Origin: Bacteroidales bacterium
GTDB lineage: Bacteria > Bacteroidota > Bacteroidia > Bacteroidales > UBA3663
Assembly: GCA_045576355.1 (NCBI GenBank)
Contig: JAZNGG010000015.1
Location: forward strand, 9,123-73,122
Direction: 5' to 3'
Length of the DNA: 64,000 nt
Shown here: positions 5,101-63,587 of the stretch, one piece after another
How positions within the stretch are numbered: position 1 is the stretch's first letter
Layout: each line of letters opens with the position of its first letter
Translations under genes and position numbers: made by a program
Notes under the pieces: generated by a model
Told to the model about the DNA's origin: nothing
Seen by the model: the letters and a program-made list of their open reading frames with translations, nothing else
Database searches by the model: none

Positions 5101-5475
5101 TCCACCGAGCCGGCTGCTGCAATGTACTATAACGATGCCAAACCCGAAAAGATCTTCTATCAAGGCATGGCTCTGCGCAAGCTGGGACGCATCGATGAAG
5201 CCAACAGCCGTTTCCACAAGTTGGTCAACTACGGCAAACAGCACATCTTCGAACCACAGGTGATGGACTACTTTGCGGTCTCACTCCCCGACCTGCAGAT
5301 CTGGGATGGTGATCTCAACCTGAAAAACCGCATCCACTGCCTCTTCATGCTCGCCCTTGGCTACATGGGTCTCAATGAGATCCATAAGGCAGAGCGCTAT
5401 ATGAAAGAAGTGGAGCAACTGGACATCAATCACCAGGGGATACAAGCACTACGAACATTCATGGAGCAGTATTAG
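2122..5475 (+). CDS. DUF5107 domain protein with a long TPR-repeat C-terminal region (1117 aa)
   Basis: The N-terminus (IPTYEVGKPEKNPIFLEKRVYQGSSGVVYPYP ... LPELGGRV ... IKPALVGLAGPWISGGIEFNWPQHHR) matches my memory of the DUF5107 signature. The remainder is TPR-like helical repeats. It starts 24 nt after the GH43 stop and is probably co-transcribed. Confidence 0.75.
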   Translation: MSAKAWKEQVTIPTYEVGKPEKNPIFLEKRVYQGSSGVVYPYPVIESMSDERVDKEYEAIYLENEYIKVMILPELGGRVQMAYDKIKQRHFVYYNHVIKPALVGLAGPWISGGIEFNWPQHHRPSTYLPVDTTIEEHADGSVTVWINEMERMFHQKGMAGFTLRPGCAYLEIEGRLSNRTSMPQTFLWWANPAVEVNDYYQSVFPPDVNAVFDHGKRAVSSFPIATGTYYKMDYSAGVDISNYKNIKVPTSYMGVNSKYDFEGGYENDTHGGMLHVASHHFSPGKKQWTWGNGDFGRAWDRCLTDDDYEGAPGVFRPYIELMAGIYTENQPDFTWLMPYEEKQFVQYFMPYRELGIVKQATRDFVFNIEQAAAGKVRIMVMSTSRQQVYLSLRHKDLTQEFYQKQLTLTPEEILEEEIHVGECTLNDLHFTISKDFEGQERLTPSAHYPFHGRIVLEWYAEPDEIRPIPDAAEAALTPQETKTIDQLYLTGLHLEQYRHATWSALNYYEEALRRDPLDYRCNNQIGLWYLRRGRFDKAEQYLRTAVKVLQKRNPNPYDGEPLFNLALCLKHQFKLQEAYHWFWKSTWNKAWADAGYFEAACISTGQRRYEEALDEVERALISNARNHKARALKAIILRKMGRTDEALTWIRSSLAVDLFNYVCRYEQYLLTRDETLLAELKRLLRGSCHNYDEVALDYRQAGLTDEAQAIWRLAIEEQAVSPMTYYYMGDYEQAEKISPDYCFPNSVDAIIALTLAKACNPQGARAPYYLGCLYYDKRQYDLARDNWELSARLDPEFPTVWRNLALYYYNKQKCRDKAIDCMERAFSLDTTDSRILMELDQLYKVTGKPHAERLEFLEQYPALIAERDDLLLEQITLLNQLGHYREAMNLLDRHIFHPWEGGEGKVPAQYQFSRVEWAKQILKEEKGKKQIDKAKMDLCLDLLLECFDYPHHLGEGKLLGAQENDFSYFMGLTYEYLDDLPTARIYWENATVGSTEPAAAMYYNDAKPEKIFYQGMALRKLGRIDEANSRFHKLVNYGKQHIFEPQVMDYFAVSLPDLQIWDGDLNLKNRIHCLFMLALGYMGLNEIHKAERYMKEVEQLDINHQGIQALRTFMEQY

Positions 5476-5477
5476 TT

Positions 5478-5650
5478 GATGGGGACTTCGTCCTGCTATG
5501 GCTGATGGCGATGGCGCGATTGGTTTAAGGGTACCTTTTAGGCATTAAGGGCATCAAGGCCTTAAAATTATAATCCTCTGCCATCAGCCATAGCAGGACG
5601 CAACCCCTAAACCCTTAAACCCCTAAACCAACAAACCAACAAACCAAACG
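5478..5650. repeat. Mosaic intergenic repeat locus R1
   Basis: A perfect 20-bp inverted repeat, GTCCTGCTATGGCTGATGGC (5490-5509) and GCCATCAGCCATAGCAGGAC (5580-5599), surrounds a 70-bp spacer. It is followed by the heptamer run CCCTAAA/CCAACAA (5603-5648). The locus begins 3 nt after the upstream stop codon. Confidence 0.85.
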
Positions 5651-5670: not shown

Positions 5671-5701
5671 TTGACATTGGCTTTCGGATGTTATATCTTT
5701 G
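5671..5701 (+). promoter_or_regulatory. Bacteroides-type promoter of candidate sRNA A
   Basis: TTGACA at 5671-5676 and a perfect -7 box TAtcTTTG at 5694-5701. The whole 45-bp block is conserved in copy B. Confidence 0.5.
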
Positions 5702-5707
5702 TAAAGT

Positions 5708-5787
5708 TTAAGTTGAAAGATAGATGAAGCGTTGAGACGTTGCAGGGCAGATCGCCCTACATGTTTCGATGCTTCATCGCTTTTTTG
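5708..5787 (+). ncRNA. Candidate small RNA A (about 80 nt) ending in a long hairpin plus U-tract
   Basis: Hairpin at 5723-5778 (GATGAAGC...GCTTCATC outer stem, GGGC/GCCC apical stem) followed by GCTTTTTTG. Several G-U pairs exist only on the + strand. A paralog lies at 19255-19356 (-). Confidence 0.4.
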
Positions 5788-5878
5788 TCTCCCTGCACTC
5801 GGCCGTTCGGATGAAAATTCAATGGTCCGAAAGAGTCCATTCATAGAGTTTATTTGCTTAAAAGGCCGAGGCTTTTTA

Positions 5879-6032
5879 CTTCACGAGCGTACCCTCATTA
5901 TTCAACGAGCGTACCCTCGTTGGTCGATGAGCGTACGCTCGTTGTGCAACGAGGCTACGCGTGTTAAAAATTAGCCCCGCCGCGTTACACTAAATAAGCC
6001 AATGAAAATCTCATGAGAGCCAATGCGTGAAA
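5879..6032. repeat. 22-bp-period minisatellite, array A
   Basis: Units are CTTCACGAGCGTACCCTCATTA, TTCAACGAGCGTACCCTCGTTG, GTCGATGAGCGTACGCTCGTTG and TGCAACGAGGCTACGCGTGTTA (5879-5966). About 3 decayed units follow. Confidence 0.85.
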
Positions 6033-6224: not shown

Positions 6225-6492
6225 GCGAGTTGAGAAGAGTACAGAGAACAGAGTACAGAGAACAGAGAAGCCATAGCGGACGAAGTCCCTTATTTGGTTT
6301 AGAAGTTTAAAGGTTTAGAAGTTTATTTTTTCAACCCTTCAACCCTTCAACCACTAAACCAACCATAGCCATCAGCCATAGCAGGACGCAACCCCTAAAC
6401 CACTAAACCACTAAACCACTCAACCACTCAACCCCTAAACCAACCATAGCCATAGCCATCAGCCATAGCAGGGCGCAGCCCCTAAACCCCTC
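6225..6492. repeat. Mosaic intergenic repeat locus R2
   Basis: A GA-rich run is followed by CCATAGCGGACGAAGTCC, then GGTTTAGAAGTTTA twice, CAACCCTT twice, CCATAGCC/CCATCAGCC units and ACCACTAA/ACCACTCA runs. The same words recur at R3, R7 and R8. Confidence 0.85.
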
Positions 6493-6594
6493 AACCCAAA
6501 AAGAGCGGCATGCCGACATAAAATCGACACACCGCCCCGTCCCACGCTGTTAGGATATTATCTATACAAGACCCTCAAAGAGGTCCCGCACAAA

Positions 6595-6818: not shown

Positions 6819-9800
6819 TTACTTCACGAGCACCTTCTTACCGCCCACGATGTAGAGACCCGGAGCCTTCACTTGCTCCACCTTCTGACCCTGGAGGTTA
6901 TAGATGTCGGCGGCATGCTGCTCTGCTGTTACACCTTCAATACCGGTCTCAGCAGTAGCGATACGCACCTTCGGTGCTGCGGCAGCTGCCGGGAGCACGA
7001 GGAATGCCTTATTAGCCGGGATGTAGCTACCTGTGTACTGATAGAATGCGGTCTCGCTGTCGATGGTAGTGAGCGCATAGATCGAACCACTGAAGTTGGA
7101 TGCAGCCGTACGCACTGCCACACCACTGAGATCTGACTCAACAGCTTCAGTCTCCCCGGTATAAGCCACCATATCGTAACTACCAGGTTCACCGGCAAGC
7201 ACCACACCGGTCTGAGCCGGGATATAACCCTCAGTAAGTTCAACGAGGCTGAGATAATCAGCGGCGTCAGACAATGCACCAACGTATGCTGTCAAACCTG
7301 CAGGCACCGCCACAGCATGATTAGCATAGAAAGTAGAATATCCGCTTTCGTTGATGGTGAGCGTAATGTTCTCGATAGGCTCATAGCATACGGAAATCAG
7401 CAAATTGGCTTGAGTACCTCCCGTACATGCAAAATCTATAGTATTAACAGCATTCACATTCTTGATCAAAAGGTTGCAAGCAGAAGTCGCTGTTTTATCT
7501 GTCAGTACGAGAGACTCTGAGATGATGTTATTCACATAGTCTCCATCTGCATATACACCCTCGATGGTTACAGCTTCGTCATAGTTAGAGTTACCGACCA
7601 AGCGAATATGTTTCAATTTATAACCTGCGTTAGGAGTAATCCGGAAACCTTTCACCTCTCCGGCAGTCTGACCTGTACGGATCTTCAGACCATCTGAAAT
7701 GTTGTTTCCGCTCTCTCCTCCGGCAATATAAGCACCGGGCACGGTATATGAGGTTCCGACATTATCCTTATTCGTTTCACTACCGTTTTCCTTAGTTACT
7801 GTTTCCCAATCAGCTGTCGTTGGATATACTACCTTAACAAGACTGATATAACCGGCATCTCCACCCACTACTATAGTATTCTTTGCGTCAGTACCGGAAA
7901 TCGTATAGCTGATGGTCTTACCCGCAGCGTAATCGGTACTACCCTCGATGGTGGTAGAAGACAACTCGTTATAGGCTGTAATAGTAACTATTGCGCCTTG
8001 ACAAGAAGGGAAACTAAATATGGTACCATTATTCACCTGTGCCCACTCATCAGAGCGACCGATATTATAGATTTTACCATTGGTTCCATCCAAATCAAGT
8101 TTGAGATCCATAGTAACACCTTCCACAGACACCTGTGTCACAAGAATTCCTTTTTTACCTTGATAATTCAAAGCAGGAGCACCATTTTTAGGTCCGAAAT
8201 ACCAATTAGCAGTTATAGGTTCATAATCATGTTTTGCCAATGACACAGTATTTTCTGTAAATACCGGGGTCAATGTGACATCTTCTGTGATAGTTACTTT
8301 GGCACCTATATTATAGGTAGTATTTCCATCGGTCCAACCGGTCAAGGTGTATCCCTCTTTATAGAGAGTCTTATTAGTCGGGATGGTAACCTGACCTCCA
8401 TTATCAACATATTCTACTTCAGGCACGATCCCTTCTACAGACTCTACAGAACCTAAACCATAAGCAACAACCAACAACTTCTCAAAATTTGCAGTCAAAT
8501 TGACATTGGCAGAAAGAGAAGCAATCGCGTAAGTTGCATTTTCAGAGATTACATTAGACTCTGCATCTGTCCAATTGACAAATTTATAACCCGTATTGGC
8601 ATTGGCTGTAAATGATACTGCTGTACCCTCGTCAAAACTTGAGCCGGCAGGAGACTGTGTAATAGTTCCTGCTTCTGCAGGAGAAACAGAAGTTGTCACT
8701 GTGTACTGTGGCACCTCTATAATTGTTCCGGCATACTCTCCCTCGATTTTCACATTGGCAAAACCGACATGCTTTCCTGGATCCAGGTTATAAACATAAA
8801 CGGTCAGATAAAAATCATCTGAAATAGCCTCAAATCCGGTAATATCCAACTCGAATGAAACATCTCCGGCATCACCATTATTACGAATCGGCTTGACTCC
8901 GGTAGCCAACGTTTTAGAAACATCATCTCCGGCACTCACAACGATATCAAACAAACCACCTCCGGTGCCGAAACGACAAATATCGGCACTCACTTTCTTC
9001 GGTGTAAATGTCAATCCACTTTTCAAATCCACTGCCCAAGAAAAAGAATGTCCGTTGGTCTTTTTTGTAACTTTTGCAGATGGAGTAGCAGTAGTGAAGA
9101 CTACACTATTATAACCGGTCTGTGCTTTTTGACCGGACATCTCTGATCCAAGAGAGAAAGATGCAGTAGAAACGACATTATCTACTGACACTTCGTATGC
9201 AGGAGTTGTAGTACCCTCACTCATCGTCCATGAAACAGCTACACTGGTAGTCTCTTCAAAATTGGCGGTCAAGTTAATGTCTGCAGAAACATTATCAATA
9301 GTATAAGAAGCATCCGTAGAGACTTCATTACCCTCGCCGTCTGTCCAGTTTTGAAATGCATAACCGGATTTAGCAGAAGCATTGAGTGTTACAGAACCGC
9401 CCTCATACACTTCAGTCCCGTTGGCTGGAGTTACTACACCGGCATCAGCAGGGTTTACAGATGTCGTAATTGTGTACTTGGAAGCTGAAAGAGAGACTAA
9501 CTCTCCGGTCAATTGCAACTTTTCAGCGGCAAGATATTTAGAATTACTACCAGCATAATAATAATAGACCTTAACATTTATGGCTCCTGTCAAATTACTA
9601 ACAGAAAGGTTCTCCGTAAAAGTCGAATTAGAAATAGATGAATTATTATAATTAGATACTGTATAGCTTTTGGGAGTATTAATAGTAGTAGCAACATCAT
9701 CTACAACATTCTCTACAAGCACTTTATAAGTAAAATTATTACTAACTAAAAAAACGGAGTACAACTGTGAAAGGCTCAAAGAATAACCATCTGGCACATC

Positions 9801-10136
9801 TAAAGTGAATCCAAAATAAGCATCATCTTTAAATTCGGATAAATTACCTCCATCATATTGAGATCTGAAACAATAATCAGGAACAGTAAAACCTACCGCA
9901 GATGAAGTTATAGTATAAATACTTCCTTTATTGGTATTTTGACTTGCTTTTGCACCTTTAATAGCAGTCACCGTCACCAAATCATTCTCCGAAGAGAAAA
10001 CTGCTTCGCTTGCGGTTTTAGCAGAGGTATCCAAAGTACGGGTTATACCCATTTTGAAGCTCTCAGCATACGCACTTCCTATGCCAGCGATCATCATCAC
10101 GATCGCGAAGAACAAATTAAGTAATTGTTTTTTCAT
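6819..10136 (-). CDS. Large T9SS-secreted surface protein with InlB-B-repeat and Listeria-Bacteroides-type repeats
   Basis: Signal peptide MKKQLLNLFFAIVMMIAGIGSAYA. Two InlB-B-like modules (YTITTSVNPADAGVVTP...GYAFQNWTD and YTVTTSVSPAEAGTITQ...GYKFVNWTD) and GYTLTGWTDGNTTY. The C-terminus is a T9SS sorting domain (...IYNLQGQKVEQVKAPGLYIVGGKKVLVK). Confidence 0.8.
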   Translation of the reverse strand: MKKQLLNLFFAIVMMIAGIGSAYAESFKMGITRTLDTSAKTASEAVFSSENDLVTVTAIKGAKASQNTNKGSIYTITSSAVGFTVPDYCFRSQYDGGNLSEFKDDAYFGFTLDVPDGYSLSLSQLYSVFLVSNNFTYKVLVENVVDDVATTINTPKSYTVSNYNNSSISNSTFTENLSVSNLTGAINVKVYYYYAGSNSKYLAAEKLQLTGELVSLSASKYTITTSVNPADAGVVTPANGTEVYEGGSVTLNASAKSGYAFQNWTDGEGNEVSTDASYTIDNVSADINLTANFEETTSVAVSWTMSEGTTTPAYEVSVDNVVSTASFSLGSEMSGQKAQTGYNSVVFTTATPSAKVTKKTNGHSFSWAVDLKSGLTFTPKKVSADICRFGTGGGLFDIVVSAGDDVSKTLATGVKPIRNNGDAGDVSFELDITGFEAISDDFYLTVYVYNLDPGKHVGFANVKIEGEYAGTIIEVPQYTVTTSVSPAEAGTITQSPAGSSFDEGTAVSFTANANTGYKFVNWTDAESNVISENATYAIASLSANVNLTANFEKLLVVAYGLGSVESVEGIVPEVEYVDNGGQVTIPTNKTLYKEGYTLTGWTDGNTTYNIGAKVTITEDVTLTPVFTENTVSLAKHDYEPITANWYFGPKNGAPALNYQGKKGILVTQVSVEGVTMDLKLDLDGTNGKIYNIGRSDEWAQVNNGTIFSFPSCQGAIVTITAYNELSSTTIEGSTDYAAGKTISYTISGTDAKNTIVVGGDAGYISLVKVVYPTTADWETVTKENGSETNKDNVGTSYTVPGAYIAGGESGNNISDGLKIRTGQTAGEVKGFRITPNAGYKLKHIRLVGNSNYDEAVTIEGVYADGDYVNNIISESLVLTDKTATSACNLLIKNVNAVNTIDFACTGGTQANLLISVCYEPIENITLTINESGYSTFYANHAVAVPAGLTAYVGALSDAADYLSLVELTEGYIPAQTGVVLAGEPGSYDMVAYTGETEAVESDLSGVAVRTAASNFSGSIYALTTIDSETAFYQYTGSYIPANKAFLVLPAAAAAPKVRIATAETGIEGVTAEQHAADIYNLQGQKVEQVKAPGLYIVGGKKVLVK

Positions 10137-10380: not shown

Positions 10381-10548
10381 AAGTAAGAAAAAGAGCAAAG
10401 AGGAAACTGAAAACAAAGCCATAATCTATCGCCATCAGCCATAGCGGGCGCAGCCACAAGCCCTCGCCATAGCAGGACGAAGTCCCCCTGCCATAGCCAT
10501 AGCCATAAGCCATAGCGGGCGCAGCCCTTTAAACCCCTCAACCACCCC
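10381..10548. repeat. Mosaic intergenic repeat locus R3
   Basis: A GA-rich tract is followed by CCATCAGCCATAGCGGGCGCAGCC, CCATAGCAGGACGAAGTCC, CCATAGCC twice, CCATAGCGGGCGCAGCCC and finally TTAAACCCCTCAACC. Confidence 0.85.
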
Positions 10549-10690
10549 GGGTGTAATCCACAATTATTCCACCTATGAGAGAATTTCCACCTCCTATAAA
10601 AGGCGAAGCAACGGCTGAATCACTCAGACGTTGCCCCTAATTGTAGCTTATATACCATGAATTTACTGAAAAACAAATTATTTACGGGTG

Positions 10691-10765: not shown

Positions 10766-13700
10766 TTATTCCATATCATTTGATTCATTTTTAATACTAT
10801 TATCCTCCTCGCGGCTACGGTTCACTTTCTGTTTGTACTCCACCGGTGGCATTCCCATATCTCGCTTGAAGCACTTACTGAAATATTTCGGGTCAGAGAA
10901 TCCTACTTTATAGGCGACATTGGCCAAAGAATCTTCGCCGGCATTGATGAGCTGCACCGCCCGACGAATACGGATCTTACGGATAAAATCGACCGGCGGC
11001 ATCCCTAAGACGGACTTCACTTTCCGATAGAAGCTCGTACGACTCATGTTGAGCGCATCGGCAAAGTCCTCCACGGAGAGTAAAGGATTGGACATATTTT
11101 GCTCGAAGTAGTCCATCATCCGAGTAACAAACTCCTTGTCATAATCGACCACCTGCGGTGCAGAGAGCGGGATGACATGAGCCGCACCCTCCTTATCGTC
11201 ACTCCGCTCGGGGAGACAACTTGCCAGGAATGCCTGCTGCAACATCTGTCGCTGGTGGAGCAGATTATCTACACGGCTCCGGAGATATGTGGCACTGAAT
11301 GGCTTGGTGAGATAGTCATCGATGCCATGTTCCAGTCCCTCGATGCGGTCATCGATCGAAGACTTGGCAGAGATGACCACGATCGGGACATGACAGATGA
11401 GCGGATCGGCTTTGATGCGGCGCACCATCTCCATGCCATCCATCTCCGGCATCATGAGATCGGTCAGGATGAAGTCTATCTCCTCGCGCTTGACGATGTC
11501 CAGGCCCTCTTTGCCATTGGTTGCCTCCCGAAGTCGGTAGGTCGGAGCGAGGATCGAACAGATAAATTGACGGAGTTCCTCATTGTCCTCGACCACAAGG
11601 ATCGTGGCAGGACGCTGTGGCTTGCCTTTATTGGAGAGCGTGCCATTCTCCTTTTCTGCACTCACCTCTTCGTGCTCGTCCGCCTCTTTGCGCGTCTTCT
11701 CCTCAGTCTCTCCTATGACAAAATCGACCAGCGCATCATCGAGATAGGTCTCCCGTTTGCGGCTGAATGTCACCGTGAAGCATGTCCCTTCGCCCGGTGT
11801 ACTCTTGACATCGATGTGGGCATGATGGAGATGGACCAACTCTTTCACCAGAGATAGCCCGATGCCCGAAGAGGGCTGCATCTCACTGATCTCCGGGAGG
11901 GAGACAAAGCGCTCAAAGATCTTGTTGAGCTGCGAGGATTCGATGCCCCTGCCCTCGTCTGCCACAGCGACGCGCACTTCATCCTCAGAGACACGCATAG
12001 AGACGGTGACAGCCTTGCCGGCATCGGTAAACTTAAAGGCATTGGAGAGGAGATTGAAAATGATCTTCTCTACCTTATCGGCATCGAGCCAAAGCTCCAA
12101 TGTCTCGACCTCCACTTCCATGGTGTAACGGATCTGCTTTTCGCGAGCCTTATCGTCAAAGTATGACTTCACTTTCTGGAGCAGGGGGACTATGTCGGTT
12201 TGACTCAACGTGAGCCGGACGTGTCGGGTCTGTATCTTGCGGAAGTCGAGGATCTGATTGACCAACTCCAGCATCCGCGAAGTGTTTTTATGGGCGAGTT
12301 CGAGGTGATTACGAGCTTGCAGGGAGAGCGGTTCCTGCGCCAGGACATCGCTGATAGGACCGGAGATAAGGGTAAGGGGGGTGCGCAGTTCGTGAGAGAT
12401 GTCGGTGAAATACTTCATCTTGAGGCGGGATATCTTGCGCTCCACGTCCATCTTATGACGGAGTTTGAAGATATAAGTATATATATAGGTAACGATGGTA
12501 ATCAGCACAAAGAAGACCAGGAAGTAGAATAGCCAGCTCCATGGGGTCTCCCAGAAGTTACGTTCGATCTCGATGGAGAGCAGACGGGCATTGTCACACC
12601 AGATGCCATCATGATTGGTGGAGCGGACCTGCAGATGATGGGTCCCACCGGAGAGATTGACAAAATTGACTTTAGGGGCAGAAGAGTAGGTCCAGGGAGT
12701 CTCCTCCGTACCATCCATTTTGTAGGCATAACGGACCAGCGAGGAGGGCGAAAAGTCCAGAGCAGCAAAGGAGAGTCCGAAATCCCGCTGATCGGCCGAG
12801 AGGCGGAGGGTGTCCAGATCATTGAGCGGGATCTCCTCACGATTGGCATAGGAGACACCGGTGAAGACCACACCGGGTGTAAAACGGCTCTTTCGCAGAT
12901 GGTCATAAGAGAAGGTCAACGAACCGCCAAACAGGCCGGCGACCACTTTGCCGGACGGGTGGATGGCAGGCATTGCCTCTGTGAACCGATAATCGCGATC
13001 GAAGTCAGTGCGGTCATAATATTCAAAACGATGTTCCGCAGGATAATAACAAGAAAGGCCGCGACTTGCCACGATCCACAAACGATCATGGAGATCCAGA
13101 CAGGCAGAGAGCGAGACATCGCCTCCGGGGTTCTCCCGATTGAGATAGGTGTCAAAACAGAGTGAATCTGTGAGCAGGTTATCTCCCTGCACTTCGCTCA
13201 CCCCCAATCCATAGGTGCAGACCAATGTCTTCCCCTCAGAGGTGTAGGCGACAGCCATCACATCGTTGCCGGGCAAAGAGGCAGGATCAGCCGAACGATG
13301 GAAATGTTTATAGAAGATGATCTCTGCCGGACGTTCAAAGATGCCGGAGAAAGAGATCAGACCATCTGTCGTACCGACCAGGATGACCCCATCCCGGGCA
13401 CCGGTGATGCACCGGATGTTGTTAAAGTCGAAGTAAGGATAGTTCTGTAGGCGGTTGTTTCGGTTGTTGAAGCGCTGGCCTGTTCCCGTGATCGAAAACA
13501 CATTGAGTCCACCCCCATAGGTGCCAATCCATAGGTGCCGGCGCTCATCCTCATAAAGAGCATATACATTATTATTACTGAGGCTGAAACTGTTGTTGGC
13601 ATCATGCTTGAAGTGCTGTATCGTGATCGATCCATCAGGCTGAAACCAGATGCGATAGAGCCCATCACCTTTCGTCCCGACCCAAAGCGACTTACGTGAG

Positions 13701-15217
13701 TCGCGCAATATGGTGTAGATTCCCTCTGTAGAAAACCGAACCGGAGCATCACTCCAGTGACCAGAGGAAGAGAGATAACGGGGAGCACCGGACGTTTGAT
13801 CCCGATAATAGAGATGTCCCTCTTTGTTGCCATACCAGATCCGATCACCATCGGAATAGACGGCACGCACTTCGCTCTCGGAGATTTCCGGATGATGCTC
13901 AAACTGATGAGACTTGAAAGAGAAATGGAAAAGGTGTGCCGAGGAGACCCAAAGGTTTTTCTGGTTATCGACAAAAAAGCGATTGAAGTTGATCCAGGTG
14001 GTTTTGTCCGAAGCATGATCTAAAACCTCATCATATGGGCGCAGGGCGTCTGTCTCGGGGTCGTACCAGGAGAGAGGTCCCTCTTCGGGCTTGATCCAAA
14101 GGGTCGAGTTGCGATCCTCAAAAGCGACGTGCATACCCTCGAGTTGATTGGTTTGCTCATAGACACGCGGGGAAGCATACCAGCAGACCTTTTGCAGATC
14201 TGCGCTGATGCGATAGACCCCCTCACCCGAAGCATAGAGCCAGAGGTTCTTTTTATGATCGGCAAAGACATGTGAGACATAACGGATCTTCCTGCCATCA
14301 TCCGTCTCGGAGATGAGCTGAAATTCCGCTGTCCCGACATTATAGAGAAACAGTCCGGCATCTGTCCCGATGGCAAGCATCCCATCATCCAATTGATCCA
14401 TGTAGGAGATCCGCCGCACGACCGAAGGAAAGTTCAGAAACTTCACACGATTCTCCTGAGGGACATACTCCGCCAAATAACCATCTGAGGTGACGAGAAA
14501 AATCCTCCCATCCACTTCCCGGATGTCGGAAAAAGTATAGCCGGAGAGGGCACGCTTCTGCCCGTAGATATAGACTCCATGATCGGTCAATATCCACTCC
14601 CTGCCGGACGAGTCGTTGAAGAAGTCATAGACCAGACGTTCCTCAGTGCTACCGCCCTCATCCGATACATCTCCTAAGAAATAGTCAAAATCCGAGAGAT
14701 CATCGTCATTAAATCGGAGACATCCCCCTCCCTGCAGGGCAATCCAGGAGACATGCTTCTCCGGGAAATTGCAAATAGGATGCCACAACTTGGAGGCGAC
14801 CAGATAATTCTTACCAACGATCCGGGAAATATCCTCAAAATGGGATGTCGAAGAGTTAAAACGATAGAGTTTCAGATCGTGGGTGACACACCAGATGTTA
14901 TCCCGACTATCACTGGCAAGGCGTATGATGCGATTGGAAGATTGCGGGTTATCATTGCCCGGCTCAGACCGAAAGAGGAGAAAATCCTTACCATCATAAC
15001 GGCAAAGTCCGTTGCGCGATGCCATCCAGATAAAACCCTTATTGTCCTGATAAAAGTCCGCAATGTGCGTCTCCGTCAACTCGTTGCCGGGAGTGTATTC
15101 TTTAAACTTACACAGCGGACGGGCAGAAAGTGTCGCATCGGGTGCAATCCCAAAAACAGAAGTTAGGAACAAAAACGTAAAACAGAAATATTTCAATTTG
15201 GCAATACCCACTCTCAT
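10766..15217 (-). CDS. Hybrid two-component system sensor kinase/response regulator with AraC-type HTH (HTCS)
   Basis: Domain order is N-terminal beta-propeller/Y_Y_Y-type periplasmic region, TM segment, HisKA (ISHELRTPLTLI), HATPase (GIGLSLVKELV), receiver (ILVVEDNEELRQF...DLMMPEMDG) and AraC HTH (FSDPKYFSKCFKRDMGMPP). Confidence 0.9.
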   Translation of the reverse strand: MRVGIAKLKYFCFTFLFLTSVFGIAPDATLSARPLCKFKEYTPGNELTETHIADFYQDNKGFIWMASRNGLCRYDGKDFLLFRSEPGNDNPQSSNRIIRLASDSRDNIWCVTHDLKLYRFNSSTSHFEDISRIVGKNYLVASKLWHPICNFPEKHVSWIALQGGGCLRFNDDDLSDFDYFLGDVSDEGGSTEERLVYDFFNDSSGREWILTDHGVYIYGQKRALSGYTFSDIREVDGRIFLVTSDGYLAEYVPQENRVKFLNFPSVVRRISYMDQLDDGMLAIGTDAGLFLYNVGTAEFQLISETDDGRKIRYVSHVFADHKKNLWLYASGEGVYRISADLQKVCWYASPRVYEQTNQLEGMHVAFEDRNSTLWIKPEEGPLSWYDPETDALRPYDEVLDHASDKTTWINFNRFFVDNQKNLWVSSAHLFHFSFKSHQFEHHPEISESEVRAVYSDGDRIWYGNKEGHLYYRDQTSGAPRYLSSSGHWSDAPVRFSTEGIYTILRDSRKSLWVGTKGDGLYRIWFQPDGSITIQHFKHDANNSFSLSNNNVYALYEDERRHLWIGTYGGGLNVFSITGTGQRFNNRNNRLQNYPYFDFNNIRCITGARDGVILVGTTDGLISFSGIFERPAEIIFYKHFHRSADPASLPGNDVMAVAYTSEGKTLVCTYGLGVSEVQGDNLLTDSLCFDTYLNRENPGGDVSLSACLDLHDRLWIVASRGLSCYYPAEHRFEYYDRTDFDRDYRFTEAMPAIHPSGKVVAGLFGGSLTFSYDHLRKSRFTPGVVFTGVSYANREEIPLNDLDTLRLSADQRDFGLSFAALDFSPSSLVRYAYKMDGTEETPWTYSSAPKVNFVNLSGGTHHLQVRSTNHDGIWCDNARLLSIEIERNFWETPWSWLFYFLVFFVLITIVTYIYTYIFKLRHKMDVERKISRLKMKYFTDISHELRTPLTLISGPISDVLAQEPLSLQARNHLELAHKNTSRMLELVNQILDFRKIQTRHVRLTLSQTDIVPLLQKVKSYFDDKAREKQIRYTMEVEVETLELWLDADKVEKIIFNLLSNAFKFTDAGKAVTVSMRVSEDEVRVAVADEGRGIESSQLNKIFERFVSLPEISEMQPSSGIGLSLVKELVHLHHAHIDVKSTPGEGTCFTVTFSRKRETYLDDALVDFVIGETEEKTRKEADEHEEVSAEKENGTLSNKGKPQRPATILVVEDNEELRQFICSILAPTYRLREATNGKEGLDIVKREEIDFILTDLMMPEMDGMEMVRRIKADPLICHVPIVVISAKSSIDDRIEGLEHGIDDYLTKPFSATYLRSRVDNLLHQRQMLQQAFLASCLPERSDDKEGAAHVIPLSAPQVVDYDKEFVTRMMDYFEQNMSNPLLSVEDFADALNMSRTSFYRKVKSVLGMPPVDFIRKIRIRRAVQLINAGEDSLANVAYKVGFSDPKYFSKCFKRDMGMPPVEYKQKVNRSREEDNSIKNESNDME

Positions 15218-15868: not shown

Positions 15869-15906
15869 ATACAAATAGCTGCGTCCATGGTCGCAGCTAT
15901 TTGTAT
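15869..15906. terminator. Hairpin terminator after mscL (15-bp stem)
   Basis: ATACAAATAGCTGCG, loop tccatggt, CGCAGCTATTTGTAT. The 3' arm overlaps a TAtcTTTG box at 15904-15911. Confidence 0.7.
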
Positions 15907-15913
15907 CTTTGCG

Positions 15914-16170
15914 AGGGCTGATGGCTGCAATGGCTCATAGTGAGGGCTTATGGGGCTGCGCCCGCTATGGCTGATGGCGATAGCTTATAGCTTTGTTTTC
16001 ACCTTTCTCCTTTCCCCTTTCAGTTTTCTCCTTTCCTCTTATCAAGGCGCAGCCCCTTATCACGCGCAACCAACGACCAAAGAGAGTAACCCTTCAACCC
16101 CTCAGCCCCAAAACCCCTCAACTCCTAAAACCCTCAACTCCTAAACCAACAAACCAATAAACCAATAAAA
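15914..16170. repeat. Mosaic intergenic repeat locus R4 (two head-to-head modules)
   Basis: GGCTGATGGC/CTATGGC units and GGGGCTGCGCCC are followed by a CT-rich tract. Then come GGCGCAGCCCC, CGCGCAACCAACGACCAAAGAG and CCCTCAAC/CCTAAACC/CAACAAAC heptamer runs. Confidence 0.85.
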
Positions 16171-16225
16171 AAACTAAATTCTTGAATTTTTTTTGAGAAA
16201 CTCTTGCTATATTGTACAAAAGCAT

Positions 16226-17279: not shown

Positions 17280-17291
17280 TATTCACTGATA

Positions 17292-17333
17292 AAATAAACG
17301 GCAGCATCATCGAGATGCTGCCGTTTATTTTAT
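17292..17333 (+). terminator. Intrinsic terminator after rbr (17-bp stem plus T-run)
   Basis: AAATAAACGGCAGCATC, loop atcga, GATGCTGCCGTTTATTT, followed by TAT. Confidence 0.8.
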
Positions 17334-17334
17334 T

Positions 17335-17570
17335 GGTTTAGGAGTTGAGGGGTTGAGGAGTTTAGGGGCTGCGCCCCACTATGGCTGGGACTTCGTCCAC
17401 TATGACTGATGGCGATGGCTGGGGCAAAGCCCACTATGGCTGATGGCGATGGCTATGGCTTTCCACTTTTCGCTGTTCTCTTTTCTCTTGGAATATGGCG
17501 TTGTTTTCATCTTTCCTCTTTCCTCTTTTCTCTTTCCTCTGTACTGTCATATTTTTTTCTCACACAGAAA
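17335..17570. repeat. Mosaic intergenic repeat locus R5 (reverse orientation)
   Basis: GGTTTAGG/GTTGAGG heptamers, GGGGCTGCGCCCC, GGGACTTCGTCC, GGGGCAAAGCCC and CTATGGCTGATGGCGATGGC units, then a CT-rich tract and GTACTGTCATATTTTTTTCTCACACAGAA. It abuts the fmt stop codon. Confidence 0.85.
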
Positions 17571-17581
17571 TGCCAAGGCCT

Positions 17582-18571: not shown

Positions 18572-18699
18572 TATCTTACTCGTTTTAACAGGTGTGCACC
18601 ACCTAAATAACAAAAAATAGCGGTTTACTCAGGCAAATATAGCACACTCTTATGGTTTTTCCAAAGAAATCGATGAGTTCTTATTCGTAAGGGCGATAG

Positions 18700-18895
18700 T
18701 TAGGGGGTGCAGCCCTTAAAGCCGCTAAACGCATGACCGAAGGGAATAGATAACGCACGCTATAGCTTGCGTTTCCCCTCCGGAAGTGAAGCTCCGGGAA
18801 GCAGTTGCGCCCTGCGAGATCTGTGCGCTCGTGCAAAAAAATGGCGTACTTTTTAAAGAGAAAAAGTGAAAGCCATCTGCCATCGCCATTAGTTA
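18700..18895. repeat. Mosaic repeat locus R6a
   Basis: GGGGGTGCAGCCCTTAAAGCC, ACGCATGACCGAAGGGAATAGATAACGCACG, the hairpin ACGCA...TGCGT, GTGCAAAAAAATGGCGTAC, a GA tract and GCCATCTGCCATCGCC. These are related to modules at 19590-19760. Confidence 0.75.
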
Positions 18896-18991: not shown

Positions 18992-19190
18992 TTCACTCAT
19001 CGGCTCGCGTAAGATCACGGATCGGCACGTGTTGTTTCACGCGTCGAGTCTCGTTACATAACGCGTCGAGTCTCGTTGCATAACACGTCGGCATGTGTTT
19101 AAACACGCGTAGCCTTGTTGCATGATTCGCGTAGCCTTGTTATGTCATGAGGGTAGCCTTGTTACGTCATGAGGGTAGCCACTTCAAACA
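18992..19190. repeat. 22-bp-period minisatellite, array B (about 8-9 units)
   Basis: The + strand units include TCACGCGTCGAGTCTCGTTACA, TAACGCGTCGAGTCTCGTTGCA, TAACACGTCGGCATGTGTTTAA, ACACGCGTAGCCTTGTTGCATG, ATTCGCGTAGCCTTGTTATGTC, ATGAGGGTAGCCTTGTTACGTC and ATGAGGGTAGCCACTTCAAACA. Confidence 0.85.
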
Positions 19191-19392: not shown

Positions 19393-19575
19393 GAGGGGAA
19401 AAGTTTTTTTAACAATTCGGTGCTGCGGCGAAAGAACAGAGAACAGAGGAAAGAGGAAAGATGAAAGGAGAAAGGAGAAAACGGATAGCCATAGTGGACG
19501 AAGTCCCTAAGCCATCTGCCATCGCCAATAGCCATAGTGGGCTTTGCCCCAGCAATAGCGGAGAATGATTTGGTA

Positions 19576-19728
19576 TTTTTGCACACAGAAGACACAGAAC
19601 CCGCGTAGCACACGACCGAAGGAAATAACACACAGAGCGCACATGTTTCGCAGTGCTTCCCTTCCGGATGGTAAACGCAAGCGTAAGCGTGCGTTTTCTG
19701 TGTATTTTATGTATTCTGTGTGCAAAAA
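19576..19728. repeat. 153-bp unit bounded by 15-bp inverted repeats
   Basis: TTTTTGCACACAGAA (19576-19590) pairs with TTCTGTGTGCAAAAA (19714-19728). An internal hairpin ACGCAAGC-GTAA-GCGTGCGT is present. Confidence 0.75.
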
Positions 19729-19833
19729 AAATGACAGTACAAAGAAAAGAGAAAAGAGAAAAGAGGAAAGGAGAAAACAAAGCAATCTGCCATAGTGGGC
19801 TTTGCCCCAGCAATAGCGGAGAATGACTTGGTA

Positions 19834-20018
19834 TTTTTGCACACAGAAAACACAGAACCCGCGTAGCCCACGACCAAAGGGAGTAAGACACAGACCACGC
19901 GTAGCACACGACCGAAGGAAATAACACACAGAGCGCACATGTTTCGCAGTGCTTCCATTCCGGATGGTAAACGCAAGCGTAAGCGTGCGTTTTCTGTGTA
20001 TTTTGTGTATTCTGTGTG
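19834..20018. repeat. Second inverted-repeat-bounded unit (with a roughly 30-bp internal duplication)
   Basis: TTTTTGCACACAGAA (19834-19848) pairs with TTCTGTGTG (20010-20018). The CGCGTAGCxCACGACCxAAG word is duplicated inside. Confidence 0.7.
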
Positions 20019-20400
20019 AGACAAAAACTGTAGAAGACGGCTTTAAGGGCTAAAAAAGGCAAAAAGGGCAAAAAGGCATCCAACCAACCGCATAGTAATA
20101 ACAAGAGTACAGAGAAAAGTGAAAGGAGAAAGGAGAAAGGAGAAAACAAAGCCATCTGCCATCGCCATCAGCCATAGTGGGGCGCAGCCCCTAAACTCCT
20201 CAACCCCTAAACCCCTAAACCAAACAGGGCGCAGCCCTAAACTCCTCAACCAACCACAAATCATTTTCAGTAAATATACACATTTTATGCGCCATAAATA
20301 TAAATTTCATACGTTTTCTGTATCTTTTTCCCATTATTTTGCTATTTTACCAAAAATTCTGCTTATTTTTGCGCCATTGATTAAAAAACTTTATGATGCT

Positions 20401-31917: not shown

Positions 31918-31998
31918 CGTTTTTATCTTGGAAAAAAGAAGTTTCTCTCTCTCTTTTCTCTCCCATGAGAGCCTTTCTCTCACCGTTCTGTCAGCCTA

Positions 31999-61971: not shown

Positions 61972-62163
61972 TTAGAGAAAAGGAAAACTGAAAGGTGAAA
62001 ACTGAAAACAAAGCCAAAAGCCATAGCGGACGAAGTCCTTGTTTAGTTTAGAAGTTTATTTTTTAGCACGCGAAGCCCATGACCAAATAAAGATGAAAAC
62101 TGAAAACAAAACCATCAGCCATAGCAAGGCGCAGTCCCCTAAACCACTAAACCAACACTGCCA
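61972..62163. repeat. Mosaic intergenic repeat locus R7
   Basis: A GA tract, CCATAGCGGACGAAGTCC, TTGTTTAGTTTAGAAGTTTATTTTTT, CGCGAAGCCCATGACCAAATAAAG, a second GA tract, CCATCAGCCATAGCAAGGCGCAGTCCCC and CTAAACCACTAAACC. Confidence 0.85.
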
Positions 62164-63321: not shown

Positions 63322-63562
63322 CAAAGAAAAGTAAAGAGCAAAGAGAAGCCATCAACCATTGCGGACGAAGTCCTTGTTTGGTTTAAAAGTTTAAAGGTTT
63401 AGAAGTTTATTTTTTCAACCCTTCAACCACTCAAACCTTCAACCCGCGAAGCCCACGACCAAATAAAGAGCAAAGATGAAAGAGCAAAGCCATAGCCATC
63501 GCCATCAGCCATAGCAGGGCGCAGCCCTTTAAACCCCTCAACCCTTCAACCACTCAACCAAA
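63322..63562. repeat. Mosaic intergenic repeat locus R8
   Basis: Same module order as R7 and R2. A GA tract, GCGGACGAAGTCC, TTGTTTGGTTTAAAAGTTTAAAGGTTTAGAAGTTTATTTTTT, CAACCCTTCAACC, CGCGAAGCCCACGACCAAATAAAG, a second GA tract, CCATAGCC/CCATCGCC/CCATCAGCCATAGCAGGGCGCAGCCC and heptamers. Confidence 0.85.
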
Positions 63563-63587
63563 ACAAAACCAATTACTACTATACACG

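What the first reader, a model, noticed from the sequence alone, without database searches (positions are those of the whole stretch)
10436..10532. Covarying 11-nt mini-hairpins with C-GNA-G triloops inside the CCATAG units
The unit after CCATAG occurs in three stem/loop versions that keep complementarity.
- GGAC-GAA-GTCC: for example 6278-6288, 10476-10486, 19495-19505, 62027-62037, 63363-63373, and inverted at 5483-5493 and 17385-17395.
- GGGC-GCA-GCCC: for example 6471-6481, 10447-10456, 10517-10527, 20179-20189, 63517-63527, and inverted at 15953 and 17364.
- GGGC-TTT-GCCC or GGGC-AAA-GCCC: 19538, 19797 and 17421.

The third stem position switches A:T to G:C on both arms together, which argues for selection on a hairpin rather than on a linear word. 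C-GAA-G and C-GCA-G are the classic hyper-stable GNA-triloop DNA mini-hairpin cores. That suggests a single-stranded DNA or RNA recognition element of the kind used by REP/RAYT or IS200/IS605-type systems.
Basis: partly seen in the sequence, partly recalled or inferred. Interest (0 to 1): 0.6.

Follow-up and report, generated by a model that had tools for sequence, protein, structure and literature searches.

The report
Mini-hairpin core of mosaic intergenic repeats
An uncultured gut Bacteroidales bacterium carries about a hundred copies of an intergenic repeat built around an 11-base G-N-A-loop hairpin flanked by short tandem arrays, which resembles REP/BIME elements but meets none of their defining tests and has no identified enzyme.

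Summary
The 11-mers GGAC-GAA-GTCC (7 copies), GGGC-GCA-GCCC (7) and GGGC-TTT-GCCC (3) are at the stated places, give or take 1-3 nt. One listed copy, at 10446, is imperfect.

All 22 copies lie in the 18% of the window that is non-coding. Each is the core of a fixed-order mosaic: purine heptamers, then GCCATNN units ending in CCATAG, then one or more hairpins, then CYNAACC octamers.

Metagenome contigs of the same species suggest roughly 100 GCA-type cores per genome. Perfect stems dominate. One stem pair covaries (A:T and G:C, with some G·T forms). Loop variation sits on the middle base (GAA, GCA, GTA, also GGTA), which fits the G-N-A / G-NN-A rule for stable DNA mini-hairpins.

Between strains the flanking arrays change by 7-, 8-, 21- and 32-nt indels, consistent with slippage. 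No insertion or excision was seen at the loci compared.

The repeat words were not found in any other public collection searched. Relatives at 89-96% GlyRS identity lack them, though two have other tandem arrays in their spacers.

The REP/RAYT or IS200 reading stays a hypothesis. The tag is ATAG rather than GTAG, stems are only 4-5 bp, there are no terminal inverted repeats, and the window has no transposase.

Best reading: a lineage-specific, REP/BIME-like selfish or structural DNA repeat with a strand-folding core.

The parts
10388..10417 (+). Island C, module P: purine-rich short repeats (GAAAAAGAGCAAAGAGGAAACTGAAAACAAA).
   Evidence: Sequence read. The same kind of 7-mer arrays sits at the left end of the other islands.
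10418..10444 (+). Island C, module M: GCCATNN units ending in CCATAG (GCCATAATCTATCGCCATCAGCCATAG).
10446..10456 (+). Imperfect hairpin GGGC-GCA-GCCA (3 pairs).
   Evidence: One contig of run X4 lacks 10455-10508 (a 54-nt skip), which removes the middle GAA hairpin unit; the ends of the skip lie in the two direct repeats GCCATAGCGGGCGCAGCC.
10475..10485 (+). Hairpin GGAC-GAA-GTCC (A:T version), preceded by CGCCATAGCA.
   Evidence: Contig depth here is 416-436 against 9-11 in the unique flanks of runs X1 and X3.
10490..10515 (+). Module M: GCCATA GCCATA GCCATAA GCCATAG.
10517..10527 (+). Hairpin GGGC-GCA-GCCC (G:C version; contains GCGCAGC).
10528..10550 (+). Island C, module T: TTTAAACC CCTCAACC ACCCC (C-rich octamers without G).
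   Evidence: Run X4 has an extra CCTAAACCAATAA inserted after 10543.
5483..5515 (-). Island A1: hairpin GGACGAAGTCC plus GCCAT units, starting 7 nt after the stop codon of gene 2122-5475.
5580..5650 (+). Island A2: GCCAT units, broken hairpin GGACGCAACCC (5596), CTAAACC/CAAACC array. With A1 it forms a long, almost perfect (about 21-24 bp) inverted repeat spanning 5489-5602.
   Evidence: DNA fold -36.2 kcal/mol, z -6.9.
6236..6497 (+). Island B. Order: P array, M, GAA hairpin (6278), GTTTAGAA array, T6, TTCAACCC array, M, broken hairpin (6384), T array, M, GCA hairpin (6471), T array. It ends against the terminator-like hairpin 6502-6538 on the - strand, which lies about 280 nt downstream of the stop (6819) of gene 6819-10136.
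   Evidence: The GTTTAGAA/TTCAACCC arrays fold into a long imperfect hairpin (-30.2 kcal/mol, z -3.25 on the - strand).
15917..16040 (-). Island D1, just after the mscL terminator: GCA hairpin (15953), GCCAT units, pyrimidine heptamers (module P read on the complement).
   Evidence: Strain alleles differ by -7 and -21 nt and by a 1-nt change that makes a 5-bp stem.
16045..16175 (+). Island D2: AGGCGCAGCCC, a CGCGCAACCAACGACC module and a CTNAACC octamer array, ending about 60 nt upstream of the perR TATCTTTG box.
   Evidence: One strain allele has a 32-nt deletion and another an 8-nt deletion.
17335..17545 (-). Island E, between the rubrerythrin terminator and the 3' end of fmt. Read on the - strand: P array, M, TTT hairpin (17422), M, GAA hairpin (17388), M, GCA hairpin (17366), T array.
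19433..19552 (+). Island F1: P array, M, GAA hairpin (19496), M, TTT hairpin (19539).
19743..19810 (+). Island F2: P array, one CCATAG unit, TTT hairpin (19797).
20105..20258 (+). Island G: P array, M array, GGGGC-GCA-GCCCC (20180), T array, second GCA hairpin (20227) with no CCATAG before it, T array. It lies upstream of the promoter of gene 20401-21894.
61975..62160 (+). Island H. It fills the 225-nt spacer between the two - strand genes 62164-63198 and 61228-61938. Order: P, M, GAA hairpin (62028), GTTTAGAA module, P', M, AGGCGCAGTCC (62127), T array.
63322..63575 (+). Island I. Order: P, M, GAA hairpin (63363), GTTTARAA array, T6, TTCAACCC array, CGCGAAGCCCACGACC module, P', M, GCA hairpin (63517), T array. 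It ends 14 nt before the ATG at 63589.

Best explanation
The 11-nt units are the conserved core of a lineage-specific, high-copy mosaic extragenic repeat in an uncultured gut Bacteroidales bacterium. It is REP/BIME-like in kind but not a member of that family.

**Anatomy (shown).**
- Each island has the same module order. Purine-rich heptamers come first, then GCCATNN hexa- or heptamers whose last unit is CCATAG.
- After 1-2 unpaired bases comes the hairpin GGRC-(G-N-A)-GYCC. The M-plus-hairpin unit may be repeated up to three times.
- The island ends in C-rich, G-free CYNAACC octamers that fade into A-rich sequence.

**How it most likely works (inferred).**
- The core works by folding of one strand. 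The likeliest form is single-stranded or extruded DNA on the strand that carries the G-N-A loop, giving a GCGNAGC-type mini-hairpin.
- That hairpin would be a structural landmark for a trans-acting protein that copies, recombines or maintains the element.
- Once an island is in place, its flanking arrays grow and shrink by replication slippage. The stable hairpin may promote this by stalling polymerase.
- The islands then persist as largely selfish spacer DNA in permissive sites between terminators and promoters.

Shown: copy number, strictly intergenic position, module order, kept pairing, the loop rule and the indels consistent with slippage. Inferred: the ssDNA form, the existence of a protein partner and the way the element spreads.
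For: **Real, repeated, non-coding.**
- The exact words are present far above chance.
- All 22 copies lie in the 18% of the window that is non-coding.

**Module order.** The same order recurs in 12 islands.

**Copy number, from contig word depth in four metagenome runs.**
- GCA core: about 1000 against about 10 in X1 and X3, and 3250 against about 27 in X4, so roughly 100 copies per genome.
- GAA core in one flank context: about 40-45 copies.
- P and GTTTAGAA arrays: about 85-115 copies.

**Structure is constrained.**
- 90.8% of cells are paired, with one covarying pair.
- Versions seen outside the window:
  - GGGCGAAGCCC
  - GGGCGTAGCCC and GGGCGGTAGCCC
  - a 5-bp GGGGCGCAGCCCC
  - the G·T form GGGCGAAGTCC
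- In the pile-up only the middle loop base (C>A, 11-32%) and one stem base (C>T, 3-8%) vary at 2% or more. The adjacent arrays vary at many positions.
- The loops GAA, GCA, GTA and GGTA fit the G-N-A / G-NN-A mini-hairpin rule. GCGNAGC melts at 70-76 °C (PMC13037366).
- The broken form is rare, at about 2-3 copies per genome.

**Slippage.** Strain alleles differ by 7-, 8-, 13-, 21- and 32-nt indels inside the arrays, and by a 54-nt deletion between direct repeats.

**Lineage-specific.**
- No true match in 185,579 species-representative genomes, JGI metagenomes, IMG/VR, plasmids or phages.
- Relatives at 89-96% GlyRS identity lack the words.

**DNA-level or selfish rather than message-bound.**
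- Islands occur in both orientations (9 on +, 3 on -) with no fixed relation to neighbouring genes.
- Short-read contigs break at islands, and synteny breaks there too.
Against: - No enzyme was identified. 30 window genes scanned against Pfam, plus four read from their translations or called-gene tables, are housekeeping or carbohydrate-active genes. The rest of the genome could not be fetched.
- No insertion or excision polymorphism, target-site duplication or terminal inverted repeat was seen. The islands at 5483, 6458+, 10400-10550 and 15900-16175 are present in all strains compared.
- The covariation rests on one pair and few independent events.
- The TTT-loop version (3 copies) breaks the G-N-A rule.
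- Nearest-neighbour folding gives the isolated hairpins only -2.3 to -3.9 kcal/mol, no better than shuffles. The special G·A stacking is not in that model.
- Two islands probably lie inside transcripts: 61975-62160 in an operon spacer and 63322-63575 just before an ATG. An RNA role is therefore not excluded.
- 17 of 22 hairpins have the G-N-A strand on the + strand. By GC skew and gene orientation that strand looks like the leading-strand template, which is not the strand most exposed as ssDNA (inference).
- Depth-based copy numbers come from collapsed assembler contigs and are rough.
Confidence: 0.45

Rival explanations
1. True REP/RAYT or IS200/IS605-type system. The CATAG-plus-hairpin is the ssDNA recognition and cleavage site of a Y1 HUH transposase encoded elsewhere in the genome, and this enzyme disperses the units.
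For: - The layout is REP-like: a tetranucleotide, 1-2 unpaired bases, then a stem-loop.
- Subfamilies carry alternative complementary stem bases and G·T pairs, as described for GTAG-1 and GTAG-2 REPs (PMC3733652).
- It is high-copy and extragenic.
- One inverted dimer resembles a REPIN (5489-5602).
- The vocabulary is species-specific.
Against: - The tag is ATAG, not GTAG or CGTC. Stems are 4-5 bp against the usual 6-9 bp.
- Most units are direct tandem copies, not inverted pairs.
- There is no Y1 transposase in 64 kb.
- No mobility was seen among strains.
- GTAG repeats have not been reported in Bacteroidetes (PMC3733652).
Confidence: 0.2
2. RNA-level element. The islands are transcribed as leaders, operon spacers or 3' tails, and the hairpin with its C-rich, G-poor arrays acts in RNA. 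Possible roles are a Rho-loading (rut-like) insulator, a processing or stability signal, or a protein sponge.
For: - G·T (G·U) intermediates exist: GGGCGAAGTCC and AGGCGCAGTCC.
- Island 63322-63575 ends 14 nt before an ATG with no TAnnTTTG box in between. Island 61975-62160 fills an operon spacer.
- The T and M modules are C-rich and almost free of G on the + strand.
- Metatranscriptome contigs contain island-like sequence.
Against: - Orientation relative to transcription is not consistent. Six islands that follow a gene's 3' end would be read as the G/T-rich complement.
- No RNA run was indexed for island B.
- Metatranscriptome depth is low and DNA carry-over is possible.
- No Rfam family matches.
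- The G-N-A rule with a C·G closing pair is a property of DNA mini-hairpins.
Confidence: 0.15
3. No selected structure. The islands are slippage-prone minisatellites typical of this clade, and the small palindromes stay perfect through template-switch correction of quasi-palindromes during replication. A variant of this view is that GGRCNNNGYCC is a double-stranded palindromic site for a dimeric DNA-binding protein.
For: - Relatives L243 and L244 have spacers full of other short tandem arrays (7-, 10-, 11-, 16/17-, 22- and 25-mers) with different words.
- Strain differences are array-unit indels.
- Only one pair covaries.
- The isolated hairpins are not more stable than shuffles in standard models.
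Against: - Slippage alone does not explain the same ordered four-module mosaic at about 100 loci.
- It does not explain why loop positions 1 and 3 are fixed while position 2 varies. Template switching perfects stems but puts no constraint on loops.
- A dimeric protein with degenerate half-sites would tolerate GGAC...GCCC hybrids, yet hybrids are rare.
Confidence: 0.15

Closest known systems
REP / BIME elements and REPINs of Proteobacteria (with RAYT transposases)
   Same: - High-copy, strictly extragenic and species-specific.
- A short tag next to a stem-loop, sometimes with unpaired bases in between.
- Subfamilies with compensating stem changes and G·T pairs.
- Mosaic islands that combine the palindrome with other fixed motifs (BIME-like).
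- Occasional inverted dimers.
   Different: - The tag is (C)ATAG, not GTAG or CGTC.
- Stems are 4-5 bp and the whole palindrome is 11-13 nt, against 20-40 bp.
- Units are mostly direct repeats.
- The flanks are true tandem arrays of period 6-8.
- No RAYT is known.
- The phylum is Bacteroidota, where only CGTC-type repeats were reported (PMC3733652).
Cyanobacterial STRR heptamer arrays with embedded small dispersed repeats (SDR; Elhai et al. 2008, Genome Res 18:1484; recalled from memory, paper not held in the library)
   Same: - Intergenic tandem heptamers.
- Very small (about 20-27 nt) hairpin-capable dispersed repeats nested in or next to them.
- No known enzyme.
- Vocabulary specific to the lineage.
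   Different: - A different phylum and no sequence similarity.
- The module order is fixed here.
- Mobility was inferred for SDRs from orthologous comparisons and was not seen here.
Extraordinarily stable DNA mini-hairpins GCGNAGC / GCGNNAGC (phage G4 origin, RSF1010 ssiA, phage N4 early promoters; PMC13037366)
   Same: - The cores contain GCGCAGC, GCGAAGC, GCGTAGC and GCGGTAGC, or ACGAAGT.
- There is a C·G closing pair, and loop G and A are invariant while the middle base is free.
- Known natural examples are ssDNA landmarks read by primases or a phage RNA polymerase.
   Different: - Those examples are single sites in phage or plasmid origins and promoters, not a chromosomal family of about 100 copies.
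- Formation of the hairpin was not tested here.
- The TTT-loop version does not fit the rule.
BrickBuilt MITE with internal 23-nt minisatellite in Porphyromonas gingivalis (PMC4596501)
   Same: - A Bacteroidales intergenic repeat that combines dispersed copies with an internal tandem array.
- Copy number of arrays varies.
- The window also holds 22-nt arrays of that style.
   Different: - BrickBuilt has a leader and tail with small inverted-repeat ends and about 19 copies.
- The element here has no inverted ends, units of 6-8 nt, and a hairpin core.
Intergenic TAACTGA heptamer direct repeats of Beggiatoaceae and cyanobacteria (PMC4679880)
   Same: Many intergenic sets of tandem heptamers, proposed to be regulatory.
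   Different: That is a single unit type, mostly in 5' regions and without a hairpin core. The comparison rests on the abstract only.

Membership tests
REP (GTAG/CGTC-tagged palindromic repeats) | Terminal GTAG (or CGTC) tetranucleotide next to the stem. | tested here: not met
   Every array-linked hairpin is preceded by CCATAG (once TCATAG, once CCATTG) plus 1-2 bases. The first base of the tag is A, not G. According to PMC3733652 the degenerate forms vary only at positions 2-3.
REP (GTAG/CGTC-tagged palindromic repeats) | Palindrome of 20-40 bp, with stems mostly 6-9 bp (5 bp at the least). | tested here: not met
   Stems are 4 bp, or 5 bp in some copies. The whole unit is 11-13 nt.
REP (GTAG/CGTC-tagged palindromic repeats) | High copy number and extragenic location. 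| tested here: met
   About 100 copies per genome by contig depth. All 22 window copies are non-coding.
REP/RAYT (REPtron) system | A single-copy RAYT (Y1 HUH) gene flanked by the repeats in the same genome. | not testable with these tools
   None among 30 window genes scanned against Pfam.
REPIN | Two REPs in inverted orientation forming one long hairpin, as the replicating unit. | tested here: inconclusive
   There is one such pair (5489-5602, about 21-24 bp, z -6.9). The other islands carry hairpins in direct orientation.
IS200/IS605-derived non-autonomous elements | Subterminal imperfect hairpins at both ends, with fixed cleavage tetra- or pentanucleotides, and a TnpA in the genome. | tested here: not met
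   Hairpins are internal, with 1-3 per island. The ends are tandem arrays with ragged borders. No TnpA is in the window.
Classical MITE | Terminal inverted repeats and a target-site duplication. | tested here: not met
   The left end is a purine-rich array and the right end a C-rich array, with no inverted ends and no duplicated flank.
DNA mini-hairpin motif (GCGNAGC / GCGNNAGC) | A C·G closing pair with a loop G-N-A or G-NN-A, where any N is allowed. | tested here: met
   - 14 of 17 perfect copies and all 5 imperfect window copies have GAA or GCA loops.
- GTA and GGTA loops occur elsewhere in the species.
- In the pile-up only the middle loop base varies.
- Exception: 3 copies with a TTT loop.
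DNA mini-hairpin motif (GCGNAGC / GCGNNAGC) | Physical formation: high Tm, anomalous gel mobility, resistance to 3' exonuclease. | not testable with these tools
   Standard DNA energy parameters give only -2.3 to -3.9 kcal/mol. They do not model the sheared G·A pair.
Any Rfam RNA family | A match at the family's gathering score. | tested here: not met
   There are 0 hits in the whole window at gathering score. At E ≤ 1 only chance microRNA-precursor and snoRNA hits appear, lying on the long inverted repeats.

The most novel reading that the evidence does not exclude
The islands may be a previously undescribed class of bacterial repeat, which could be called hairpin-minisatellite mosaics. In this reading a hyper-stable G-N-A DNA mini-hairpin is a functional ssDNA landmark. 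It could be a priming, recombination or HUH-enzyme site of a Bacteroidales-specific system. The same machinery, or polymerase stalling at the hairpin, would generate the ordered tandem arrays around it. That would also explain why related species carry array-rich spacers with entirely different words.
Probability: 0.2. Interest if true: 0.75.

Novelty: new variant of a known kind. Interest (0 to 1): 0.5.

Why it matters
- REP-like repeats and their enzymes are well studied in Proteobacteria. In gut Bacteroidales they are close to unknown.
- This family breaks short-read assemblies at each island and coincides with a synteny breakpoint. It fills large spacers next to promoters and terminators, so it bears on assembly quality, genome plasticity and perhaps gene insulation in a little-known gut lineage.
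- If the G-N-A mini-hairpin really forms, this would be the first chromosomal high-copy family built on that motif. It would give a natural setting for testing what such hairpins do in cells.
- The species-specific words would also serve as a sensitive marker for tracking this lineage in metagenomes.

Tried and rejected
**Collection scans for the repeat.**
1. A pattern with most hairpin bases free, scanned against genome contigs, returned 118 chance hits in unrelated taxa. That scan was wasted.
2. Flank-anchored patterns found only chance hits in coding DNA of high-GC taxa, in genome contigs and metagenome contigs. Viral contigs gave nothing real. Plasmids and phages gave no match.

**Looking for the genome and its relatives.**
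3. Protein-anchored searches with the hybrid two-component regulator returned only 25-36% paralogues. PerR gave 45% or less.
4. Fetching more islands through spurious ORFs found only the window's own ORF.
5. Extending the window through its end genes failed.

**Function and transcription.**
6. Rfam gave nothing beyond chance microRNA-like and snoRNA hits on the inverted repeats.
7. Two metatranscriptomes were too shallow and contig-based to decide whether islands are transcribed. No RNA run was indexed for island B.

**Readings considered and dropped.**
8. Coding. Open frames across islands, such as 19409-20155 on the - strand, are low-complexity artefacts with no homologues.
9. G-quadruplex or telomere-like function of the (TTTAGGGG)n complement. 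Most arrays have only CC or CCC runs.
10. Intrinsic terminator. No U-run follows the stem.
11. An orientation rule relative to neighbouring genes. None was found.

**Literature.** A search for the exact words returned only unrelated primer and gene sequences.
Full report
**What is at the site.** The stretch 10436-10532 lies in the 629-nt spacer between two minus-strand genes. These are a hybrid two-component regulator (10766-15217) and a surface-repeat protein (6819-10136). It reads: GCCATNN units ending in CCATAG, then GGGCGCAGCCA. Next come CGCCATAG-CA and GGACGAAGTCC. Then four GCCATA(A)G units and GGGCGCAGCCC. It ends in C-rich octamers (TTTAAACC CCTCAACC). A purine-rich stretch (10388-10417) precedes it.

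**Check of the observation.**
There are 7 GGACGAAGTCC, 7 GGGCGCAGCCC and 3 GGGCTTTGCCC, counting both strands.
- A given 11-mer is expected about 0.03 times in the window. CCATAG occurs 54 times against 27 ± 4.8 in shuffles.
- One listed copy (10446-10456) ends in A and has only three pairs.
- A census of all near matches found 17 perfect and 5 imperfect copies inside repeat islands. Everything else within two mismatches lies outside the repeat islands, almost all of it in coding DNA, and looks like chance.
- On 25 copies (window plus locus L119), 90.8% of cells pair, against 25-58% for slid partners. Exactly one pair covaries: G:C 10, A:U 6, G:U 1, other 2. Only 3 of 500 shuffles reach the score.
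- In the window the A:T stem always carries a GAA loop, so on window data alone this could be a single historical event.

**The hairpin is one module of an ordered mosaic.**
- Twelve islands in the window share the same order:
  - module P, purine-rich heptamers such as GAGAAAG, GAAAACT and AGAGAAC;
  - module M, GCCATNN units of 6-7 nt whose last unit is CCATAG;
  - 1-2 unpaired bases and then the hairpin, with the M-plus-hairpin unit repeated up to three times;
  - module T, CYNAACC octamers with no G, fading into AACCAATA and A-runs.
- In three islands the GAA hairpin is followed instead by a GTTTAGAA array, T6 and a TTCAACCC array. These fold into a long imperfect hairpin.
- Every M array of an island that ends in CCATAG is followed by a hairpin or a decayed one. 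The single exception, 18872-18891, ends in CCATTAG and runs straight into TTAAAGTTTAAAAAA.
- All 22 hairpins lie in the 18% of the window that is non-coding.
- Islands sit between terminators and promoters, 9 on the + strand and 3 on the - strand. No consistent relation to the direction of neighbouring genes was found.
- Units at 5483 (-) and 5596 (+) form a long, almost perfect (about 21-24 bp) inverted repeat.

**The organism.**
- The genes are housekeeping functions plus pectin and xylan enzymes. Promoter boxes are of the TAnnTTTG type, so this is a Bacteroidales bacterium (the promoter motif is from established knowledge).
- Its DNA is found only in gut and wildlife metagenome runs.
- Apart from near-identical (99%) copies from the same species, the nearest PerR is 57% identical. 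GlyRS has relatives at 96, 93, 92 and 89%.

**Copy number and variation across the genome.**
- I laid assembler contigs of four metagenomes on island sequences. Word depth at the GCA core is about 1000 in X1 and X3 against about 10 for unique flanks. It is 3250 against about 27 in X4. That is on the order of 100 copies per genome.
- The GAA core in the 10475 context gives about 40-45 copies. The P and GTTTAGAA arrays give about 85-115. These figures are rough, because contigs collapse repeats.
- At the GCA core (6471-6481) only two positions vary at 2% or more. These are the middle loop base (C>A, 11-32%) and one stem base (6479 C>T, 3-8%). The loop G and A and the other stem bases do not vary, while the adjacent T array varies at many positions.
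- The broken form GGACGCAACCC has depth 17-28 in X1 and X3, or 2-3 copies.
- Contig ends and inserts show further versions:
  - GGGCGAAGCCC, which is common;
  - GGGCGTAGCCC and GGGCGGTAGCCC;
  - GGGGCGCAGCCCC;
  - the G·T form GGGCGAAGTCC and GGACGGAGTCC.
- The G:C stem therefore occurs with GAA, GCA, GTA, GGTA and TTT loops, and the A:T stem with GAA. Stem state and loop type are not locked together, which strengthens the case for kept pairing.
That is not met.

**The loop rule.** GAA, GCA and GTA are all G-N-A, and GGTA is G-NN-A. A 2026 review of mini-hairpin DNA states that only GNA triloops (any N) and GNNA tetraloops closed by C·G give the extraordinarily stable GCGNAGC / GCGNNAGC hairpins, with Tm 70-76 °C. 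Natural examples lie at the phage G4 origin, RSF1010 ssiA and phage N4 early promoters, where a primase or a phage RNA polymerase reads folded ssDNA (PMC13037366). GGGCGCAGCCC contains GCGCAGC exactly, and GGGCGAAGCCC contains GCGAAGC. The three TTT-loop copies are the exception. Standard energy parameters do not model this motif and give the cores only -2.3 to -3.9 kcal/mol.

**How the islands change.**
- Two contigs of other strains span the island upstream of perR. Besides one base substitution, they differ from the window by -7 and -21 nt in the heptamer array and -32 nt in the octamer array. A 1-nt change also makes a 5-bp stem.
- Other runs show an 8-nt deletion, a 13-nt insertion of octamer-like sequence, and a 54-nt deletion between two direct GCCATAGCGGGCGCAGCC repeats.
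- All of this is what replication slippage would produce.
- At the orthologous loci compared, the islands are present in every strain. I saw no filled-versus-empty site, no target duplication and no inverted ends.
- Downstream of rubrerythrin the neighbour differs between strains: fmt in the window and a GH43 gene in L119. The break lies at the island-bearing spacer.

**Distribution.**
- Flank-anchored patterns that match 2-3 times in this window found nothing real in 185,579 species-representative genomes, in JGI metagenomes or in IMG/VR. Island B found nothing in plasmids or phages.
- Loci from relatives at 89-96% GlyRS identity lack the words.
- Two of those relatives have spacers packed with other tandem arrays. 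L244 carries GAGTAGA x15, ATTTTCA x11 and 10/21-, 11- and 22-mers. L243 carries 16/17-mers x7-9 and 22- and 25-mers.
- Array-rich spacers are thus a patchy trait of the clade, and the words are species-specific.

**Enzyme.** None of the 30 window genes scanned against Pfam is a transposase, integrase, reverse transcriptase or HUH protein. The one nuclease-like gene is a DUF1016/YhcG protein at 22109-23164. Four further annotated genes were not scanned; their translations and called-gene tables identify them as the two-component regulator, MscL, PerR and rubrerythrin. The rest of the 87-kb contig and of the genome could not be retrieved.

**RNA.**
- There is no Rfam family.
- Two shallow metatranscriptomes cover the coding genes and contain some island-like contigs. 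They cannot show strand or ends, and DNA carry-over is possible.
- By position, island 63322-63575 ends 14 nt before an ATG with no promoter box in between. Island 61975-62160 fills an operon-like spacer. Some islands are therefore probably transcribed, in either orientation (inference).

**Interpretation.**
- The safest statement is descriptive. This is a lineage-specific, high-copy, strictly extragenic mosaic repeat whose most conserved part is a small palindrome that keeps its pairing and obeys the G-N-A loop rule.
- I think the core most likely acts as a folded single strand of DNA read by a trans-acting protein. The ordered mosaic would be spread by copying or recombination, and the arrays then drift by slippage (confidence 0.45).
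- The specific REP/RAYT or IS200/IS605 reading (0.2) has the right flavour but fails the tag, size and end-structure tests, and it has no enzyme.
- An RNA role (0.15) and a no-selection reading (0.15) remain open. The latter means slippage plus quasi-palindrome correction, or a duplex protein site.

**Comparison with known systems.**
- The closest are REP/BIME mosaics (PMC3733652) and the cyanobacterial heptamer arrays with embedded mini hairpin repeats (Elhai 2008, from memory).
- Also close are the BrickBuilt minisatellite MITE of P. gingivalis (PMC4596501) and the mini-hairpin ssDNA signals of phage and plasmid origins (PMC13037366).
- It works like the first two and carries the motif of the last. 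It is not a demonstrable member of any of them.
- I rate it a new variant of a known kind, of moderate interest.

Noticed in passing
window 5671-5790 (+) and 19392-19250 (-): Two homologous small-RNA-like genes. Each has a TTGACA-17-TATCTTTG box, then about 90-110 nt ending in an 18-bp stem (GATGAAGCGTTGAGACGT...) and a T-run. There is no Rfam match.
   Followed up: partly
window 19560-19735, 19818-20035 and 18690-18850 (+): A tandemly duplicated unit of about 175-220 nt, plus a diverged copy. Each has a TATTTTTG box and a terminator-like ACGCAAGCGTAAGCGTGCGTTTTCTGTG. A shared CGCG(A/T)AGC(C/A)CA(C/T)GACC module also occurs inside the islands at 16064, 62070 and 63447.
   Followed up: partly
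window 5883-5953, 19039-19180, 31998-32069, 47820-47932, 58201-58253; L119 1476-1560: Tandem arrays of 22-nt units (ACGAGCGTACCCTCGTTGTTCA-like), each unit a small palindrome, in other spacers and next to a hairpin island in L119. The style recalls the BrickBuilt 23-nt minisatellite MITE of P. gingivalis.
   Followed up: no
L243 11630-11815, 12620-12830, 15787-16075; L244 617-852, 9368-9800, 12627-12900: Relatives at 93% and 89% GlyRS identity have spacers packed with quite different short tandem arrays. These include 7-mers x11-15, 16/17-mers x7-9, and 22- and 25-mers. Other relatives (L242, L246) have compact spacers. Array-rich spacers look like a patchy trait of the clade.
   Followed up: partly
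window 18872-18891: A GCCAT array that ends in CCATTAG and runs straight into TTAAAGTTTAAAAAA with no hairpin. It may be an empty or a deleted site for the hairpin unit.
   Followed up: no
window 17280-17581 versus L119 1196-1730: Strains in the metagenome runs have rubrerythrin followed by a different terminator, a different island and a GH43 gene, instead of fmt. Homology stops at the stop codon, and fmt and the acetyl-CoA hydrolase gene have no depth at 92% likeness or above.
   Followed up: partly
window 63322-63589: The island runs to 14 nt before the ATG of a signal-peptide gene, with no TAnnTTTG box in between. The nearest candidate box (TACCTTCG, about 63292) lies upstream of the island, so the island may be a 280-nt 5' leader.
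   Followed up: no
window 7363-10107: In run X4 the contig that spans the surface-repeat protein gene matches only its two ends at 92% or more. About 3 kb in between is replaced by diverged sequence, so this is a hypervariable surface gene.
   Followed up: no
window 3 (GC skew) and gene strands: Cumulative GC skew falls steadily across the window, and 22 of 34 genes are on the - strand. The + strand therefore looks like the leading-strand template. 17 of 22 hairpins carry the G-N-A strand on +.
   Followed up: no
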